Positions 9,001-40,500 of a stretch of DNA of 64,000 nucleotides are shown piece after piece. This stretch comes from Pecten maximus. Its lineage: Eukaryota. The position numbers were made by a program. The first letter of the stretch is position 1; the number at the start of each line of letters is the position of its first letter. The stretch lies in assembly GCF_902652985.1 (NCBI RefSeq), contig NC_047016.1, positions 40,114,001 to 40,178,000 of the forward strand, written 5' to 3'.

Positions 9001-12000
9001 AAGTGATATCACCTATTCGAATAGGTGATATCACTTAATGAAACGAATAGGTGATATCACCAATTCATTTTTCAAATAAGTGATATCACCTATTCGAATA
9101 GGTGATATCACCCATTCGAATAGGTGATATCACTTAATGAAACGAATAGGTGATATCACTTATTCGAATAGGTGATATCACTCATTCGAATAGGTGATAT
9201 CACCAATTGGAATAGGTGATATCACTTAAAAATATTCTTAAGTGATATCACATATTTGAATAGGTGATATCACCCATTCGAATAGGTGATATCACTTATA
9301 AAATTCTTAAGTGATATCATCTATTCGAATGAGTGATATCACCTATACGAATAGGTGATATCACTTATGAAATTTTATAAGTGATATCACCTATTCGAAT
9401 TGGTGATATCACCTATTCGAATGAGTGATATCACCTATTCAATCAGTGATATCACCTATTCGAATAGGTGATATCACCAATTCATTTTTCAAATAAGTGA
9501 TATCGACTATTCGTTTCATTAAGTGATATCACCTATTCGAATGAGTGATATCACCTATTCGTTTCAATAAGTGATATCACCTATTCGAATGAGTGATATC
9601 ACCTATTCGAATGGGTGATATCACTTAATGAAACGAATAGGTGATATCACTTATTCGAATAGGTGATATCACTCATTCGAATAGGTGATATCACTTTAAA
9701 AAGTTCTTAAGTGATATCACCTATTTGAATAGGTGATATCACTCATTTGAATAGGTGATATCACCAAATGGGAATAAATAGTAAAACGGCGCCCCATAGA
9801 TATCACCTGTTCGAATAGGTGATATCACTTAAGAATATTTTTAAGTGATATCACCTATTCCAATTGGTGATATCAACTATTCGAATGAGTGATATCACCT
9901 ATTCGAATGAGTGATATCGCCTATTCGTTTCATTAAGTGATATCACCTATTCGAATGGGTGATATCATCTATTCGAATGGGTGATATCACTTATTTGAAA
10001 AATGAATTGGTGATATCACCTATTCGAATAGGTTATATCACTGACTGAATAGGTGATATCACTGATTGAATAGGTGATATCACCAAATGGGAATAAATAG
10101 TAAAACGGCGCCCCATAATGGCGGCAATCATGGATTAGGCCTATGGACTGACCAGAAAAATATCAACATTTGGTAAGGACCATCTCGGGATCATTTCAGG
10201 TAAGGTAGAACTTGAGAAGAAGTTTGAAATAAGTGTTGTTCAGGAAATTGAAAACTATGATTGCGCAAGCATGTTACAAAATGGCAACCGTGTCTGCCAT
10301 GTTTAGATTTTACGAGGCTGAAAAATAGCAACACTTTGTTGGCTACCCTTTCTAATCATCCTCACCGATTTCCAGCTCTATGGCACCAGTGTAAGAAGCG
10401 AAGTATAAAATGCGTTATTCATTTCAAGATGGCTGCCTCGGACCTACCCGAAAAATAACAATACTTAGATCTAGTCAGGGCCATCTCGGGAACATTCCAG
10501 GAAAGTTTCAGCTTTCAGTTCAGTGGAACTCGAGAAGTTTGAAATGTGAAAACGGACGGCGCATGACGACGGACGAAGTACGATTGCTATAAAATGGTCC
10601 CCCAAGAAATAAGAACAAGAGTATAAGAAATATAATGTTAAAGTTTATTTAGATAAAACAGTGTGGCACTAGTGATACTTGCAATTGTTAAAAAATCATA
10701 ACAGCTTTAATTATAGAACAATATAACAGTGTTGCTAAGTGACATTATAGAACCAAATGTGCTGATAATATACAAACACAACATAAGAATATGACAATAA
10801 ACAAACAATATTACGATAAACAAACAACATAACAATATGACAACATTATAAATACAACAATACAAAATGACATAGAAACACGCCGAAACAATGACAATAT
10901 ACAAACAATATATGATATACAAACACATTAATACAACAATATGACAACATGCAAACACAGCATCACACATTTGTGCTGATCAAACACTAATCAATTATAC
11001 GTAGCACTAACGTCTATGGATATCGGAATTACCGAGATTAACCTATCACATTATCAGTCTATCACACGCCCCTCCAGAGAATGCTGTAGTTGGTCTATCA
11101 CACGCCCCTCCAGAGAATGCTGTAGTTGGTCGTAGACATCCTGGCTAGCTCGTCAGTCTCCACGGTCCTTCCCGATGTGGCTGGCATCTCCAAGTCTGGG
11201 TCTCCTCCCAGGGAAGTGAGGACAAGGGCAGATAACTCCTGGACCTGGCGATTCTTCGTGGATCGGTACTGGTCAAACATCCTGCGGACACCCTGGATGA
11301 TGGACTTGCGGGTCAGTAGGTGGAGAACAAGGCTGTGGGCATCGTCAAGTGTGGATAGGAAAAGTTGTCGGTCAAGGCGGGTCAACTGGTCATCTGGAAT
11401 AAAAGATTAAATACATGTATATGTTACTATGTTCAAAGACATTATTCAAGATAAGATCTATCGCACATTGTCCAATAAAAAAAAAAAAATAGAAACTGGA
11501 CATAAGAGTTACGACCGGAAATAAACACACAAGTGTTGATCCCTTTAAAAAAGTCTATATACCAGAAAAAAACCATTTGATTTATATTGAAATGATACAG
11601 TATAGAAATAATCTATTTATTTAGCATTTCTTTGTTGGTATGAAAAACGAACTTTCAACAATTTTAATTTAAACACCTTAAGAATGTGGAATTACGATTC
11701 ATTCTAAATATTTGGTTTGTACATGTATGGTGGAAGAACTTCCTAACTTGTTATTACATTATTACATATTTCATCACAATGTATGGATGGTTTTATTGAG
11801 AAACTAACTGAATTAAAAATAATAAGATAGGATATTTACCCTAACAATACAATTATCCTGAAGTGGGTTTGAGCAATTTAATTAAAGTTATTAAAAAGCG
11901 TTGAAAAAAATGAAGAAAAAATATAAGTTTGATATTGTGCTTTCTAAGAATTAATAATGTTTACATCAAAATAATAGCTTTTTTATCTTAACAATACATA

Positions 12001-37500: not shown

Positions 37501-40500
37501 TCCATCATCCAGGGTGTTCGCAGGATGTTTGACCAGTACCGATCCACCAAGAACCGTCAGGTCCAGGAGTTATCTGCCCTTGTCCTCACTTCCCTGGGAG
37601 GAGACCCAGACTTGGAGATGCCAGCCACATCGGGAAGGACCGTGGAGACTGACGAGCTAGCCAGGATGTCTACGACCAACTACAGCATTCTCTGGAGGGG
37701 CGTGTGATAGACTGATAATGTGATAGTTTAATCTCGGTAATTCCTGTGTCCTTGGACTAGTGCTAATAAGTGACTATATTTTGCTATTTCTTTTATAAGG
37801 AGACGAATTAATATAAGCTTTAGGCTTGTTTTCGAATTCTTACATTCATGTAATGTGTACAACTTTGCATTTGCAATGTGTTTGTATATTGTAACACAGT
37901 ATTTGTATATTGTAACATTGTATTGTTGTGTTTGTATATTGTAACACAGTATTTGTATATTGTAACACAGTATTTGTATATTGTAACATTGTATTGTTGT
38001 GTTTGTATATTGTAACACAGTATTTGTATATTGTAACACAGTATTTGTATATTGTAACATTGTATTGTTGTGTTTGTATATTGTAACACAGTATTTGTAT
38101 ATTGTAACATTGTATTGTTGTGTTTGTATATTGTAACATTGTATTGTTGTGTTTGTATATTGTAACATTGTATTGTTGTGTATGTATATTGTAACATTGT
38201 ATTGTTGTGTTTGTATATTGTAACACAGTATTTGTATATTGTAACATTGTATTGTTGTGTTTGTATATTGTAACACAGTATTTGTATATTGTAACACAGT
38301 ATTTGTATATTGTAACATTGTATTGTTGTGTTTGTATATTGTAACACAGTATTTGTATATTGTAACACAGTATTTGTATATTGTAACATTGTATTGTTGT
38401 GTTTGTATATTGTAACATTGTATTGTTGTGTTTGTATATTGTAACATTGTATTGTTGTGTTTGTATATTGTAACATTGTATTGTTGTGTATGTATATTGT
38501 AACATTGTATTGTTGTGTTTGTATATTGTAACACTGTATTGTTTTGTTTGTATATTGTAACATTGTATTGTTTTGTTCGTATATTGTAACATTGTATTAT
38601 TTTGTTCCTATATTGTAACATGGTATTTTTGTGTTTGTATATTGTAACATTGTATTTTTGTTATCATGTTGTTATTATTTTGTTCAATCTGGTTATCTAT
38701 GTATTATTGTCCATGTGATTCATATGATTTTATGTAAATCAGTCTTTAACATGAATCTCCAGTGCTAAATTGTTTTATTTAAATAAATATTAATATTACA
38801 TCATAATAATTTGTTGGGTTTTTTTTTTCTTTATTTCCGGGAGCCATGTACTTACAGGCCATAGCAAATATCTATTTGTTGACAAAATACAGATATTCAT
38901 TTCTAAATAAGAAATTTATATTTGTGAATGAGAGATATTTGTATTCATATATAAATATCTGCATTTAGATTGAGTTATCTGTAACTATTAAATAAAAAGA
39001 TATATTATATCTGTATCGCATTCGAATATCGAAGATATCTGTATTTTAGACAACGCCAATATCTGTCTGTTACACTCGACTATCCCCACTGGTACAATGC
39101 AATCCATTAAAATATTAACTTAATTGAAGATAGATATACATATTCATGATAATATTATTAAAACCATATACATTGCTTGTATTTGACATGAGACTTGTAA
39201 AATGTCTACCATTCATCCTGTGAAATCTTCTGTATGAGGCATCAGAATATCACTGCCATTTAGTTGTTACTGACGAAGCAACAAAGGACTACGACGCCGG
39301 TCATTGTACGTGAAAAATTATGATTTGACCTTTTTTCTTTTTTTTTTTTGGTGTGTGATAGGATCGAGTCGTTGTGGTTTGTATATAGTGCAATATAACT
39401 TGTTATTATCGCCTATCAAGTATTTTGAAAGGAAAGAGAGAGGAAATGTGAAAGTTGTCACTCAGCTGACAAATGATATGCTTTTTGGCTCAGATGCTAG
39501 ATCTGTGGATTATCATGCAGATACCCGGGTTCGAATCTTCTTCTTACATATTCTTTCACAGGTGATTTTGTTGCAAATTGTAAGCAAATCGTACTCCGAC
39601 TACAAAAAATTGTTAAATCGTAGAGAAATAATGTTAGACAGAAGACTGATCCCTGCGATACTCCTGAGGTTATTTTTGTCCAAACGGAAGTTACACTCCA
39701 CTAACACTGGTTGTAGAACAAGACTCGTCAAGTGGTATTGGTATTTCGACATAGTTTGATCATATTTCTCAGAAGTGAACTATTTATTTTTAGTGCTTTG
39801 ACTAAGATTGACAGGCGACATATCTGACCTGAATGCACTGTATCCGTTCAACTTCCGGTAATATCAATAATTCTTCCGTTAATTACATATATACATACAG
39901 ATCTCAATATCCTATATTGGGATACATAATTCATATATACGTTCAAAAATAAACCAAAAGTCCAATCTTCCTATGAAATGTATCTTGATATTAAAGATTT
40001 ACACAGAAATTCGAAAATAAACAACAACAACAACAACAACAAAACAAAGAGACAACAACAAAAACGTAAAATATGGATTTTAAATATGAAAATCTTAACA
40101 AATGCATCCATATTTTATATATATATATATATAAAAGAGCATGTTCTATCAGCCACATTACACAATGAGATAATATGATATCGTGATGAACACTTTCACT
40201 TTATACGATTGCACGATTTAATGTATTGGGACGAAACTGCATCTGAGGTATACTTCATGTATTGATGAGCGAATTTTTATTAAGCGTATGCAAAAGTGTA
40301 ATTGTTACAATTAAATATACACCAATATTATGTATTGCTACATGTATGCATATGTATGGAAGAAAATAAAAAATTTCAAAAAAAAAAAAAAAAAAAATGC
40401 ATCCATATTTGGTGTCATTTCCGCAATGATTTATACATATAATATATCTATGACAAGTCGCACATTATACTGCTTTAAGAACAACCATTGACGAATTGAA

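What the first reader, a model, noticed from the sequence alone, without database searches (positions are those of the whole stretch)
11000..39900. Concerted evolution restricted to exons and promoter arrays, with mosaic ancestry
Seen: CDS and arrays are near-identical but introns differ in length (608, 610, 639, 468, 539 bp) and only patchily align; 3' UTRs differ greatly. Relationships are mosaic: copies 1/2 share the array-to-CCAAT spacer with copies 4/5 but share the stop-region duplication with copy 3. Inference: old duplications continually homogenised by gene conversion over the functional parts, helped by the inverted arrangement.
Basis: partly seen in the sequence, partly recalled or inferred. 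Interest (0 to 1): 0.65.

Follow-up and report, generated by a model that had tools for sequence, protein, structure and literature searches.

The report
Scallop gene cluster homogenised by conversion
Five copies of a small, uncharacterised bivalve gene in the king scallop keep almost identical exons and similar upstream repeat arrays while their introns have decayed, which is the known signature of gene conversion between old duplicates.

Summary
The window is Pecten maximus. It holds exactly five copies of a two-exon, 131-codon gene. Three are on the minus strand and two on the plus strand. Each lies downstream of 7-9 tandem 71-bp units.

The stated intron lengths are exact. Exons are 97-100% identical. 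Introns are near saturation, except for c1-c2 (a 4.5-kb tandem duplicate, 99.3%) and c4-c5 (88.5%).

Synonymous divergence between lineages is 0.03-0.09, against an intron divergence of at least 0.33-0.42 (p 1e-5 to 9e-10). In c4-c5 the two values agree (0.091 vs 0.125, p 0.47), so synonymous sites are not constrained. The exons of c5 sit closer to c1 and c3, while its intron matches c4 (p 5e-4).

Gene conversion on islands of homology is therefore supported.
- Arrays are only 88-94% alike.
- The core promoter is 73-81% alike.
- A GENECONV-like test is not significant (p 0.17).
- c4 looks unconverted.

Every array unit carries the TCF/LEF site CCTTTGATCTT. This is a lead, not a demonstrated function. 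Overall, this is a known kind of process in a new gene family.

The parts
11098..12101 (-). Copy c1: exon 1 12101-12002, intron 12001-11394 (608 nt), exon 2 11393-11098 including the stop
   Evidence: 100% tblastn matches
15576..16581 (-). Copy c2: exon 1 16581-16482, intron 610 nt, exon 2 15871-15576
21691..22725 (-). Copy c3: exon 1 22725-22626, intron 639 nt, exon 2 21986-21691. It has three private amino-acid changes (Q14K, T38I, L46V).
28626..29489 (+). Copy c4: exon 1 28626-28725, intron 468 nt, exon 2 29194-29489. It has six private changes (5 synonymous plus L55P) and is the copy that looks unconverted.
36773..37707 (+). Copy c5: exon 1 36773-36872, intron 539 nt, exon 2 37412-37707. 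Its intron is akin to that of c4; its exons are akin to those of c1 and c3.
12307..12874 (-). 71-bp array of c1: 8 units, the proximal one degenerate. 7 units carry an exact CCTTTGATCTT.
16787..17354 (-). 71-bp array of c2, 8 units
22953..23449 (-). 71-bp array of c3, 7 units
27851..28420 (+). 71-bp array of c4, 8 units
35927..36567 (+). 71-bp array of c5, 9 units; the most diverged array
28476..28625 (+). Core promoter and 5' UTR of c4, with equivalents in every copy. Positions -150 to -81 hold two CCAAT boxes and a TATA-like box and are 73-81% identical between lineages. Positions -80 to -1 are 93-95% identical.
   Evidence: the box names are read from the sequence and no promoter test was made
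11057..11131 (-). 36-nt tandem repeat spanning the stop codon, 2.1 copies. It also lies at 15535-15609 (2.1 copies) and 21578-21723 (4.1 copies), and is single in c4 and c5. The first stop is kept, so the protein is unchanged.
37877..38661 (+). TTGT-rich 3' UTR minisatellite of c5. Shorter counterparts lie at 29599-29838 (c4), 21207-21457 (c3) and about 10763-10962 (c1).
8967..17929 (.). Two tandem 4.48-kb units (about 8967-13447 and 13445-17929) that carry c1 and c2. They are 99.3% identical, with 0.13% substitutions in the segments that have no other paralogue.

Best explanation
This is an old cluster of a bivalve-specific gene with three deep lineages: A (c1/c2), B (c3) and CD (c4, c5). It has gone through two later duplications. 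The c4/c5 split is at K about 0.1. The c1/c2 duplication is very recent, at K about 0.001-0.003.

Non-allelic gene conversion templated by genomic DNA has repeatedly overwritten three short islands that stayed similar enough to pair:
- the 71-bp array;
- the 5' UTR plus exon 1, about 190 nt;
- exon 2, about 300 nt.

The introns, the core promoter, most of the 3' UTR and the flanks kept diverging. Indels in the introns limit how far a conversion tract can run, and selection on the protein keeps the exons as the surviving islands. That is why identity falls within 13 nt of the donor site and resumes 6-8 nt before the acceptor.

Copies c1/2, c3 and c5 have exchanged most recently, including exchange between oppositely oriented copies. 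c4 has not exchanged since its split from c5.

What is shown: the divergence contrast, the internal calibration and the incongruence. What is inferred: the molecular mechanism, the direction of transfer, the tract limits and the timing.
For: 1. Exons are 97-100% identical in 10 of 10 pairs, while 8 of 10 intron pairs are near saturation.
2. For 5 of 6 lineage pairs dS is 0.033-0.091 against intron K of at least 0.33-0.42, a ratio of 4-10, Fisher p 1e-5 to 9e-10.
3. Internal calibrator: in c4-c5, 8 of 93 synonymous sites differ against 48 of 417 intron columns (p 0.47). Synonymous sites therefore evolve at about the intron rate, and constraint on them cannot explain point 2.
4. c4 carries 5 private synonymous changes and 1 replacement, so it is a constrained gene whose silent sites are free to change.
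5. Incongruence: c5 differs from c4 at 9 exon sites and from c1 at 4, although the introns predict a c4 share of 0.23 (p 5e-4). Against c3 the counts are 9 and 6 (p 8e-3).
6. Identity profile between lineages: CCAAT-TATA 73-81%, 5' UTR 93-95%, exon 1 97-100%, intron positions 14-60 43-51%, exon 2 97.6-98.6%.
7. Homology between lineages starts at the distal edge of the array and ends about 100 nt past the stop; there is none in the flanks.
8. Array units are as alike between arrays as within them (4.0-4.7 against 3.9-4.8 differences per 71 nt; permutation 238 of 2000). Position-matched units are no closer than unmatched ones, except in c1-c2.
9. Protein paralogues group by species (Pecten 90/91, Ylistrum 88/87), and multiple copies exist in at least Pecten and Ylistrum.
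10. GC3 is 0.68-0.70 against intron GC of 0.22-0.28. This is compatible with GC-biased conversion, though not specific to it.
Against: - The GENECONV-like run test on the shared non-array blocks is not significant: global p 0.17, best pair c1-c4 p 0.023 uncorrected.
- Only 11 of 78 polymorphic columns are informative, and 59 are private to one lineage. The islands therefore look star-like and do not show clear tracts.
- c4-c5 gives no sign of conversion.
- Intron divergences come from optimised alignments of AT-rich sequence. They are only lower bounds, and intron turnover by indels may exaggerate apparent age.
- Grouping of proteins by species is equally expected from lineage-specific duplication.
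- No DNA of the orthologous loci was available, so the age of the duplications relative to speciation is not known.
- Of the five c1-c2 substitutions in shared non-array segments, four are states private to c1 or c2 and not donor-matched. Two of the five are CpG transitions: the private one in exon 1 and the donor-matched one in exon 2. The tenfold excess of c1-c2 differences in shared segments is therefore not clean evidence of ongoing conversion.
Confidence: 0.7

Rival explanations
1. Conversion is templated by spliced cDNA or mRNA, as proposed for fungal ribosomal-protein paralogues. Reverse-transcribed or RNA-templated repair overwrites only the transcribed exonic sequence. The arrays are kept alike by a separate process.
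For: High identity is confined to the 5' UTR plus exon 1 and to exon 2. It begins about 80 nt before the ATG, just 3' of the TATA-like box. The core promoter is only 73-81% alike and the introns are unalike. In passages of PMC6993855, the same contrast of dS far below intron rate is read as use of a cDNA donor.
Against: - The 3' UTR is transcribed but is only 49-79% alike over its first 85 nt. It differs in length by hundreds of nt before the first AATAAA (+449, +632, +456, +1075).
- There is no intron-less copy in the window.
- Identity overshoots into the intron: 11-13 nt in all copies, and 24 nt shared by c3, c4 and c5.
- The untranscribed arrays are also kept alike between copies.
- The transcript ends have not been mapped.
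Confidence: 0.12
2. There has been no conversion. All copies arose by recent duplication of a unit of about 1.9 kb (K about 0.05-0.1), and the introns and flanks were afterwards scrambled by insertions, deletions and repeat turnover.
For: The shared segments look star-like, with 59 of 78 polymorphic columns private. Array, synonymous and proximal 3' UTR divergences are all of one order, 0.03-0.1. The window is very rich in tandem repeats and retroelement debris.
Against: - The c4-c5 intron was inherited intact (K 0.125), at the same exon distance that separates c1 from c4, whose introns are at chance level (z 2.4).
- The introns of c1, c3 and c5 keep colinear weak homology (z 7-10, patches at 82-93%), as expected from age rather than replacement.
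- No intron matches any other part of the window, as a transposon insert might.
- The core promoter lies between two highly similar islands yet is 19-27% diverged.
Confidence: 0.08
3. Purifying selection acts on the nucleotide sequence of the exons themselves (codon usage, RNA structure, splicing signals or an overlapping antisense frame) and keeps old duplicates alike without any exchange.
For: GC3 is high at 0.68-0.70, and exon 2 is open on the antisense strand for 94 codons. The protein is under constraint, with 4 replacement and 11 synonymous variable sites.
Against: - In c4-c5, synonymous sites changed as fast as the intron (p 0.47), and c4 has 5 private synonymous changes.
- Between genera the protein differs at 13-21 of 97 exon-2 residues, against 0-3 among the Pecten copies.
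- Selection cannot make c5 closer to c1 than to its intron-sister c4.
Confidence: 0.04
4. The c1/c2 pair is an assembly artefact: one unit written twice, or two haplotypes placed in tandem. The cluster would then really have four copies.
For: The two 4.48-kb units abut exactly and differ by 0.13% in unique segments. The junction lies at a 22-nt repeat array, which is hard to assemble.
Against: - Haplotypes of this genome differ by 1.71% on average (passages of PMC7191990), more than ten times the difference seen here.
- The units do differ, with 7 changes clustered in one array unit and several indels.
- No reads were available to test depth.
- This rival concerns only c1/c2 and leaves the main conclusion untouched.
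Confidence: 0.1

Closest known systems
Concerted evolution of duplicated ribosomal-protein genes in fungi (PMC6993855; passages read)
   Same: Paralogues have near-identical coding sequence while introns, promoters and flanks are diverged. The test used is the same: dS significantly below the intron substitution rate.
   Different: In the scallop, the copies are tandem or inverted neighbours within 27 kb. An upstream repeat array is also kept alike. The 3' UTR is not. No intron-less copy is present. The gene is an uncharacterised bivalve family rather than a dosage-sensitive housekeeping gene. The cDNA donor proposed for fungi is not favoured here.
Concerted evolution of mosquito vitellogenin paralogues (PMC2875236; passages read)
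   Same: Clustered paralogues are homogenised by gene conversion or unequal crossing-over. Some pairs show mosaic or partial homogenisation, and synonymous differences are low between paralogues.
   Different: In Culex the converted tracts include introns and 5' regions, and paralogous introns are 88-100% alike. In the scallop the introns are excluded, and the formal tract test is not significant.
Synthetic multimerised TCF/LEF reporters and natural Wnt-responsive modules (PMC4154663, passages read; the TOPFlash design is recalled, not from a call)
   Same: There are 6-7 exact copies per array of the HMG-site 11-mer CCTTTGATCTT, all in one orientation, directly upstream of a CCAAT/TATA-type core promoter.
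   Different: The spacing is 71 bp. No Helper site (GCCGCCR) lies in or near any array; of 4 matches in the window, none is in an array. The 11-mer is no better conserved than other parts of the unit: it is intact in 24 of 28 independent units, tied with other windows. No binding or expression data exist.

Membership tests
Concerted evolution by non-allelic gene conversion | Synonymous divergence between paralogues is far below the divergence of adjacent unconstrained sequence | tested here: met
   Met in 5 of 6 lineage pairs: dS 0.033-0.091 against intron K of at least 0.33-0.42, p 1e-5 to 9e-10. c4-c5 is the exception (p 0.47).
Concerted evolution by non-allelic gene conversion | Different segments of the same copies give incongruent relationships | tested here: met
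   The c5 intron pairs with c4 (z 27), but its exons are nearer to c1 and c3, binomial p 5e-4 and 8e-3. Within the islands the signal is thin: informative sites split 6/3/2.
Concerted evolution by non-allelic gene conversion | Statistically significant shared tracts (GENECONV-type test) | tested here: not met
   My own run-length permutation test on 78 polymorphic columns of four lineages gives a global p of 0.17. The best pair, c1-c4, gives p 0.023 uncorrected. Power is low, and the original GENECONV program was not available.
Concerted evolution by non-allelic gene conversion | Paralogues within a species are more alike than orthologues between species, while the duplication predates the species | tested here: inconclusive
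   The first half is met at protein level: Pecten clade 90/91, Ylistrum clade 88/87, with 0-3 aa differences within Pecten against 13-21 of 97 between genera. The age of the duplication relative to speciation could not be tested because no pectinid DNA was available in any collection.
cDNA-templated gene conversion | The whole mature transcript, 3' UTR included, is homogenised, and untranscribed sequence is not | tested here: not met
   The 3' UTR is 49-79% alike over 85 nt and of very different lengths, while the untranscribed arrays are alike. The transcript ends are inferred, not mapped.
TCF/LEF-dependent Wnt-responsive enhancer | HMG-domain site matching the consensus | tested here: met
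   34 exact CCTTTGATCTT matches, all in the 40 array units and all in the sense of the gene; 0.06 expected by chance. The 10-letter consensus as printed in PMC4154663 (SCTTTGWSWW) matches no unit. An 11-letter reading, SCTTTGWWSWW, matches the same 34 sites; that reading is my inference of a dropped letter.
TCF/LEF-dependent Wnt-responsive enhancer | A Helper site (GCCGCCR) close to the HMG site, as required by TCFs with a C-clamp | tested here: not met
   4 matches in the window, none in or within 1.5 kb of an array. Whether scallop TCF needs Helper sites is not known to me.
TCF/LEF-dependent Wnt-responsive enhancer | TCF binding and Wnt-dependent activation | not testable with these tools
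   This needs binding and reporter assays.
Named protein family for the encoded protein | A match to a curated family above its cut-off | tested here: not met
   Pfam gives no hit for the exon translations and only sub-threshold noise for 12 relatives. The Atlas gives 0.81, which is chance level. Relatives exist: 41 at E up to 1e-3. All named ones are bivalves: scallops, oysters, Pinctada and Mercenaria.

The most novel reading that the evidence does not exclude
The exon-only homogenisation is made by RNA- or cDNA-templated repair in the scallop germ line, which would be a first clear animal case of the mechanism proposed for yeast ribosomal-protein genes. Independently, the 71-bp arrays are natural multimerised TCF/LEF enhancers that make this orphan gene family a dosage-amplified Wnt target, with array units exchanged between copies to keep the response uniform.
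Probability: 0.08. Interest if true: 0.7.

Novelty: new member of a known kind. Interest (0 to 1): 0.35.

Why it matters
The locus is a compact and unusually clean example of how conversion and selection together carve a duplicated gene into homogenised islands and free-running gaps.

It has a built-in control. One pair of copies (c4-c5) shows that silent sites are free to change, and one copy (c4) seems to have dropped out of the exchange.

The locus also cautions against dating bivalve gene duplications from coding sequence alone. The exons suggest an age of a few percent divergence, while the introns point to a much older origin.

The arrays of perfect TCF-type sites in front of an uncharacterised bivalve-wide gene give a testable handle on its regulation.

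None of this changes the present understanding of concerted evolution.

Tried and rejected
- **Pfam.** Scans of both exon translations and of 12 relatives found no family.
- **ESM Atlas.** The best score was 0.81, at chance level.
- **AlphaFold2.** Run on a 9-row alignment, it gave mean pLDDT 61 and pTM 0.31, with three helices. The model was too weak for a fold search, so none was run.
- **Rfam.** A scan of 9000-40500 gave no match.
- **tblastn.** Searches with the exon peptides and with 9 distant relatives against the window found no sixth copy or pseudogene.
- **Introns against the window.** BLAST of each intron found no dispersed repeat that could explain intron replacement.
- **Array structure.** I tested whether array units keep positional orthology or cluster by array. 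Neither holds.
- **TCF-like 11-mer.** I tested whether it is better conserved than the rest of the unit. It is not.
- **GENECONV-like test.** Not significant.
- **Excess of c1-c2 differences.** The excess in paralogue-shared segments (17/1342 against 4/3140, p 2e-6) at first looked like ongoing conversion. I rejected it as clean evidence because four of the five non-array differences are private states (only the exon-2 site is donor-matched) and two of the five are CpG transitions.
- **The listing of cluster members.** This could not be run because the database was switched off.
- **Literature on the locus names.** A full-text search for four NCBI locus names of this gene found 0 papers.

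
Full report
**Source and method limits.**
- The window is from the king scallop, Pecten maximus. The translation of exon 2 matches NCBI proteins LOC117322063 and LOC117322064 of that species at 98-100%. The GC content of 29-38% in 2-kb windows fits the 36.6% reported for that assembly (passages of PMC7191990). It is not human sequence.
- One N run at 58080-58253 was left as it is.
- I searched the spliced gene model exon by exon. The step of joining the exons and searching the joined product was left out. The full-length proteins used later are database records returned.
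- Supplementary files were not seen. The per-gene tables of PMC6993855 and the repeat annotation of PMC7191990 might bear on the comparisons.

**What is there.**
- There are exactly five copies of a two-exon gene of 131 codons: c1, c2 and c3 on the minus strand, c4 and c5 on the plus strand. c3 and c4 lie head to head.
- Each copy has a 100-nt first coding exon, a phase-1 intron of 608, 610, 639, 468 or 539 nt, and a 296-nt second exon.
- Upstream of each copy lie two CCAAT boxes and a TATA-like box (read from the sequence).
- Further upstream there is an array of 8, 8, 7, 8 and 9 units of 71 bp, 40 units in all, the proximal unit of each array being degenerate.
- Downstream, c1 and c2 carry 2.1 copies and c3 4.1 copies of a 36-nt repeat spanning the stop codon; c4 and c5 have one. 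All copies then run into TTGT-rich minisatellites of very different lengths.

**Checking the observation.**
- The intron lengths are exact.
- Exons are 97-100% identical in all ten pairs.
- c1 and c2 are not independent. They lie in two abutting 4.48-kb units that align over 4,488 nt at 99.3%, intron and flanks included. The cluster therefore has four lineages: A (c1/c2), B (c3), C (c4) and D (c5).
- Between lineages, homology begins at the distal edge of the array and ends about 100 nt after the stop. The flanks share nothing.
- The identity profile between lineages is as follows:

| Segment | Identity between lineages | c4-c5, where different |
|---|---|---|
| CCAAT-TATA region | 73-81% | |
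| 5' UTR | 93-95% | |
| Exon 1 | 97-100% | |
| Intron positions 1-13 | 85-100% | |
| Intron positions 14-60 | 43-51% | 79% |
| Last 60-9 nt of the intron | 35-60% | 89% |
| Exon 2 | 97.6-98.6% | |
| First 85 nt of the 3' UTR | 49-79% | |

- Intron interiors retain only weak colinear homology: z 7.0 for c1-c3, 10.3 for c3-c5 and 2.4-3.9 for the others, against shuffled controls. The exception is c4-c5, with z 27 and 88.5% of aligned columns.
- The arrays are similar but not near-identical. Colinear alignments that start in the array and run on into exon 1 are 88-92.5% identical.

**Is it conversion?**
- Across the five copies, 15 coding positions vary: 11 synonymous and 4 replacement. The split codon was left out of this count.
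- Synonymous divergence between lineages is 0.033-0.091. Intron divergence is at least 0.33-0.42, taken from alignments optimised to minimise it. The ratio is 4-10, with Fisher p from 1e-5 to 9e-10 in five of six lineage pairs.
- The sixth pair, c4-c5, is the useful exception. dS is 0.091 against an intron K of 0.125 (8 of 93 against 48 of 417, p 0.47). Silent sites in this gene therefore evolve at about the neutral rate.
- c4 carries five private silent changes and one replacement, so it is still a constrained gene. Selection on silent sites therefore cannot explain the other pairs.
- A simple recent duplication cannot explain them either. c1-c4 and c4-c5 have the same exon distance, but their introns are respectively at chance level and well preserved.
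- Relative distances are incongruent. c5 differs from its intron-sister c4 at 9 exon sites but from c1 at 4 and from c3 at 6. The introns predict the opposite (binomial p 5e-4 and 8e-3).
- The simplest history has three old lineages: A, B and the ancestor of c4 and c5. Their exons were overwritten by one another. c4 has been unconverted since the c4/c5 split, and c5 has exchanged with c1/2 and c3, which lie on the opposite strand.

**Limits of that conclusion.**
- Inside the islands the signal is thin. Of 78 polymorphic gap-free columns among the four lineages, 59 are private to one lineage. The 11 informative columns split 6 (AD|BC), 3 (AB|CD) and 2 (AC|BD). My run-length permutation test in the manner of GENECONV gives a global p of 0.17.
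The c3 spacer differs by private insertions of 6, 10 and 4 nt and private substitutions, so c1/2 and c4/5 merely share the unchanged state. The stop-region repeat groups A with B, as do strand orientation and the c4-c5 intron.
- Three AD|BC sites cluster within 32 nt of the core promoter, which hints at a small tract.
- c1 and c2 differ ten times more often in segments that have other paralogues than in unique segments (17/1342 against 4/3140, p 2e-6; without the array, 5/698, p 0.013). Of the five non-array differences, four are private states; two of the five are CpG transitions. I do not count this as evidence of ongoing conversion.
- Seven of the twelve array differences sit in one distal unit. 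This does look like a recent exchange within or between arrays.

**The arrays.**
- Units differ by 3.8-4.8 of 71 nt within an array (7.6 in c5), and by 3.9-4.7 between arrays (6.4-6.8 where c5 is involved).
- A permutation test finds no clustering by array (238 of 2000).
- Units matched by position are no closer than unmatched ones, except in c1-c2.
- The arrays therefore behave as one pool of units.
- 34 of the 40 units carry CCTTTGATCTT in the sense of the gene, and there is no other exact match in the window (0.06 expected). That 11-mer is written out in PMC4154663 as the HMG site bent by LEF1 (passages).
- Three points count against a firm enhancer reading. No Helper site lies near any array. 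The 11-mer is no better conserved than other parts of the unit (24 of 28 independent units, tied). The 10-letter consensus as printed in that paper does not match; an 11-letter reading does, but that reading is my inference.
- The resemblance to multimerised TCF reporters is recalled knowledge and a lead only.

**The gene.**
- The protein has no Pfam family and no Atlas relatives above chance.
- A profile of the nine pectinid sequences finds 41 relatives at E up to 1e-3 among 1.84 billion representatives.
- All relatives that carry names are bivalves: Saccostrea, Ostrea, Crassostrea, Pinctada, Mercenaria, and second paralogues in Mizuhopecten and Pecten.
- The predicted structure is low-confidence and helical (pLDDT 61). 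The function is unknown.
- A full-text search for four of its NCBI locus names found no paper.

**Other species.**
- Protein paralogues group by species: Pecten 90/91 and Ylistrum 88/87, on 12 rows. I left out the isoform record P0002.
- The Pecten copies differ at 0-3 residues. Genera differ at 13-21 of 97 residues in the exon-2 part.
- In Ylistrum the exon-1 part of one paralogue is nearer to other genera (5-6 of 33) than to its two sisters (8-9 of 33). Its exon-2 part is nearer to the sisters (8-9 of 97 against 14-19). This would fit partial homogenisation there too, or faster change in the other two copies.

**Mechanism and comparison.**
- I favour conversion from genomic donors on short islands of homology, with intron indels limiting the tracts and selection preserving the exons. 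The dependence of conversion on uninterrupted homology, and the stability of exchange between inverted repeats, are established knowledge that I recall rather than results of these calls.
- The cDNA-donor model proposed for fungal ribosomal-protein paralogues (PMC6993855, passages) fits the exon-only pattern. It does not fit the unconverted 3' UTR, the shared arrays or the overshoot into the intron.
- In Culex vitellogenin genes the conversion tracts include introns (PMC2875236, passages), unlike here.

**Verdict.** This is a real and clean case of a well-known process in an unstudied bivalve gene family. It has a useful internal control and an intriguing but untested regulatory array.

Noticed in passing
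window 11098-22725, minus strand; proteins P0001, P0002, P0004: NCBI lists three isoforms under one locus, LOC117322063. X2 equals c3 and X1 equals c1/c2 (and c5). X3 combines the c3-type exon 1 (K14) with a c1/c2-type exon 2 (T38, L46). That is a model of read-through from c3 with splicing into a downstream copy.
   Followed up: partly
window 12804-12874 against 17284-17354 (distal array unit of c1 and c2): Seven of the 12 array substitutions between the otherwise 99.9% identical c1 and c2 units fall in this one 71-nt unit. This looks like a recent patch exchange among array units.
   Followed up: partly
window 13472-14562 and its copy ending at 10083: A long array of a 22-nt palindromic unit (TTCGAATAGGTGATATCACCTA, about 47 copies, 72% matches) lies at the junction of the two 4.48-kb tandem units. 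It may have mediated that duplication.
   Followed up: no
window 24133-25280 (+), 18407-19183 (-), 13153-13365 and 17634-17846 (-): Decayed open frames resemble the reverse transcriptase and C-terminal zinc-binding part of non-LTR retrotransposons. The Pfam hits are only below cut-off (RVT_1 E 0.006, zf-RVT E 0.01). They lie upstream of the arrays of c1/c2 and between c3 and c4.
   Followed up: partly
window 23997-24146 and 25757-26127; 25499-25583: The same 18-nt repeat unit forms arrays on both sides of the retroelement fragment between c3 and c4. A (CT)42 microsatellite lies between them.
   Followed up: no
window 31509-32080, 33609-34159, 1421-2363, 58357-60481: Further unrelated tandem arrays are present: 68 bp x 8.4 and 21 bp x 26 between c4 and c5, 97 bp near the start of the window, and a 145-bp satellite beside the N run at 58080-58253. 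The window is unusually rich in tandem repeats.
   Followed up: no
3' UTRs: 37877-38661, 29599-29838, 21207-21457, about 10763-10962: Every copy has a TTGT/TGTA-rich minisatellite in its 3' UTR. Unit lengths are 21-29 nt, and total length ranges from about 200 to about 780 nt. The repeated UGU-type words might be sites for RNA-binding proteins; this was not tested.
   Followed up: no
window 11126-11410 (+) and equivalents in the other copies: Exon 2 is open for 94 codons on the antisense strand, and for 55 codons in a second sense frame. This is probably a by-product of the GC3-rich codon usage (0.68-0.70).
   Followed up: no
proteins P0005, P0006, P0008 (Ylistrum balloti); P0050, P0051 (Saccostrea cucullata): The family is also present as neighbouring paralogues in another scallop (three on one contig) and in an oyster (two on one contig). 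In Ylistrum the exon-1 and exon-2 parts give different relationships.
   Followed up: partly
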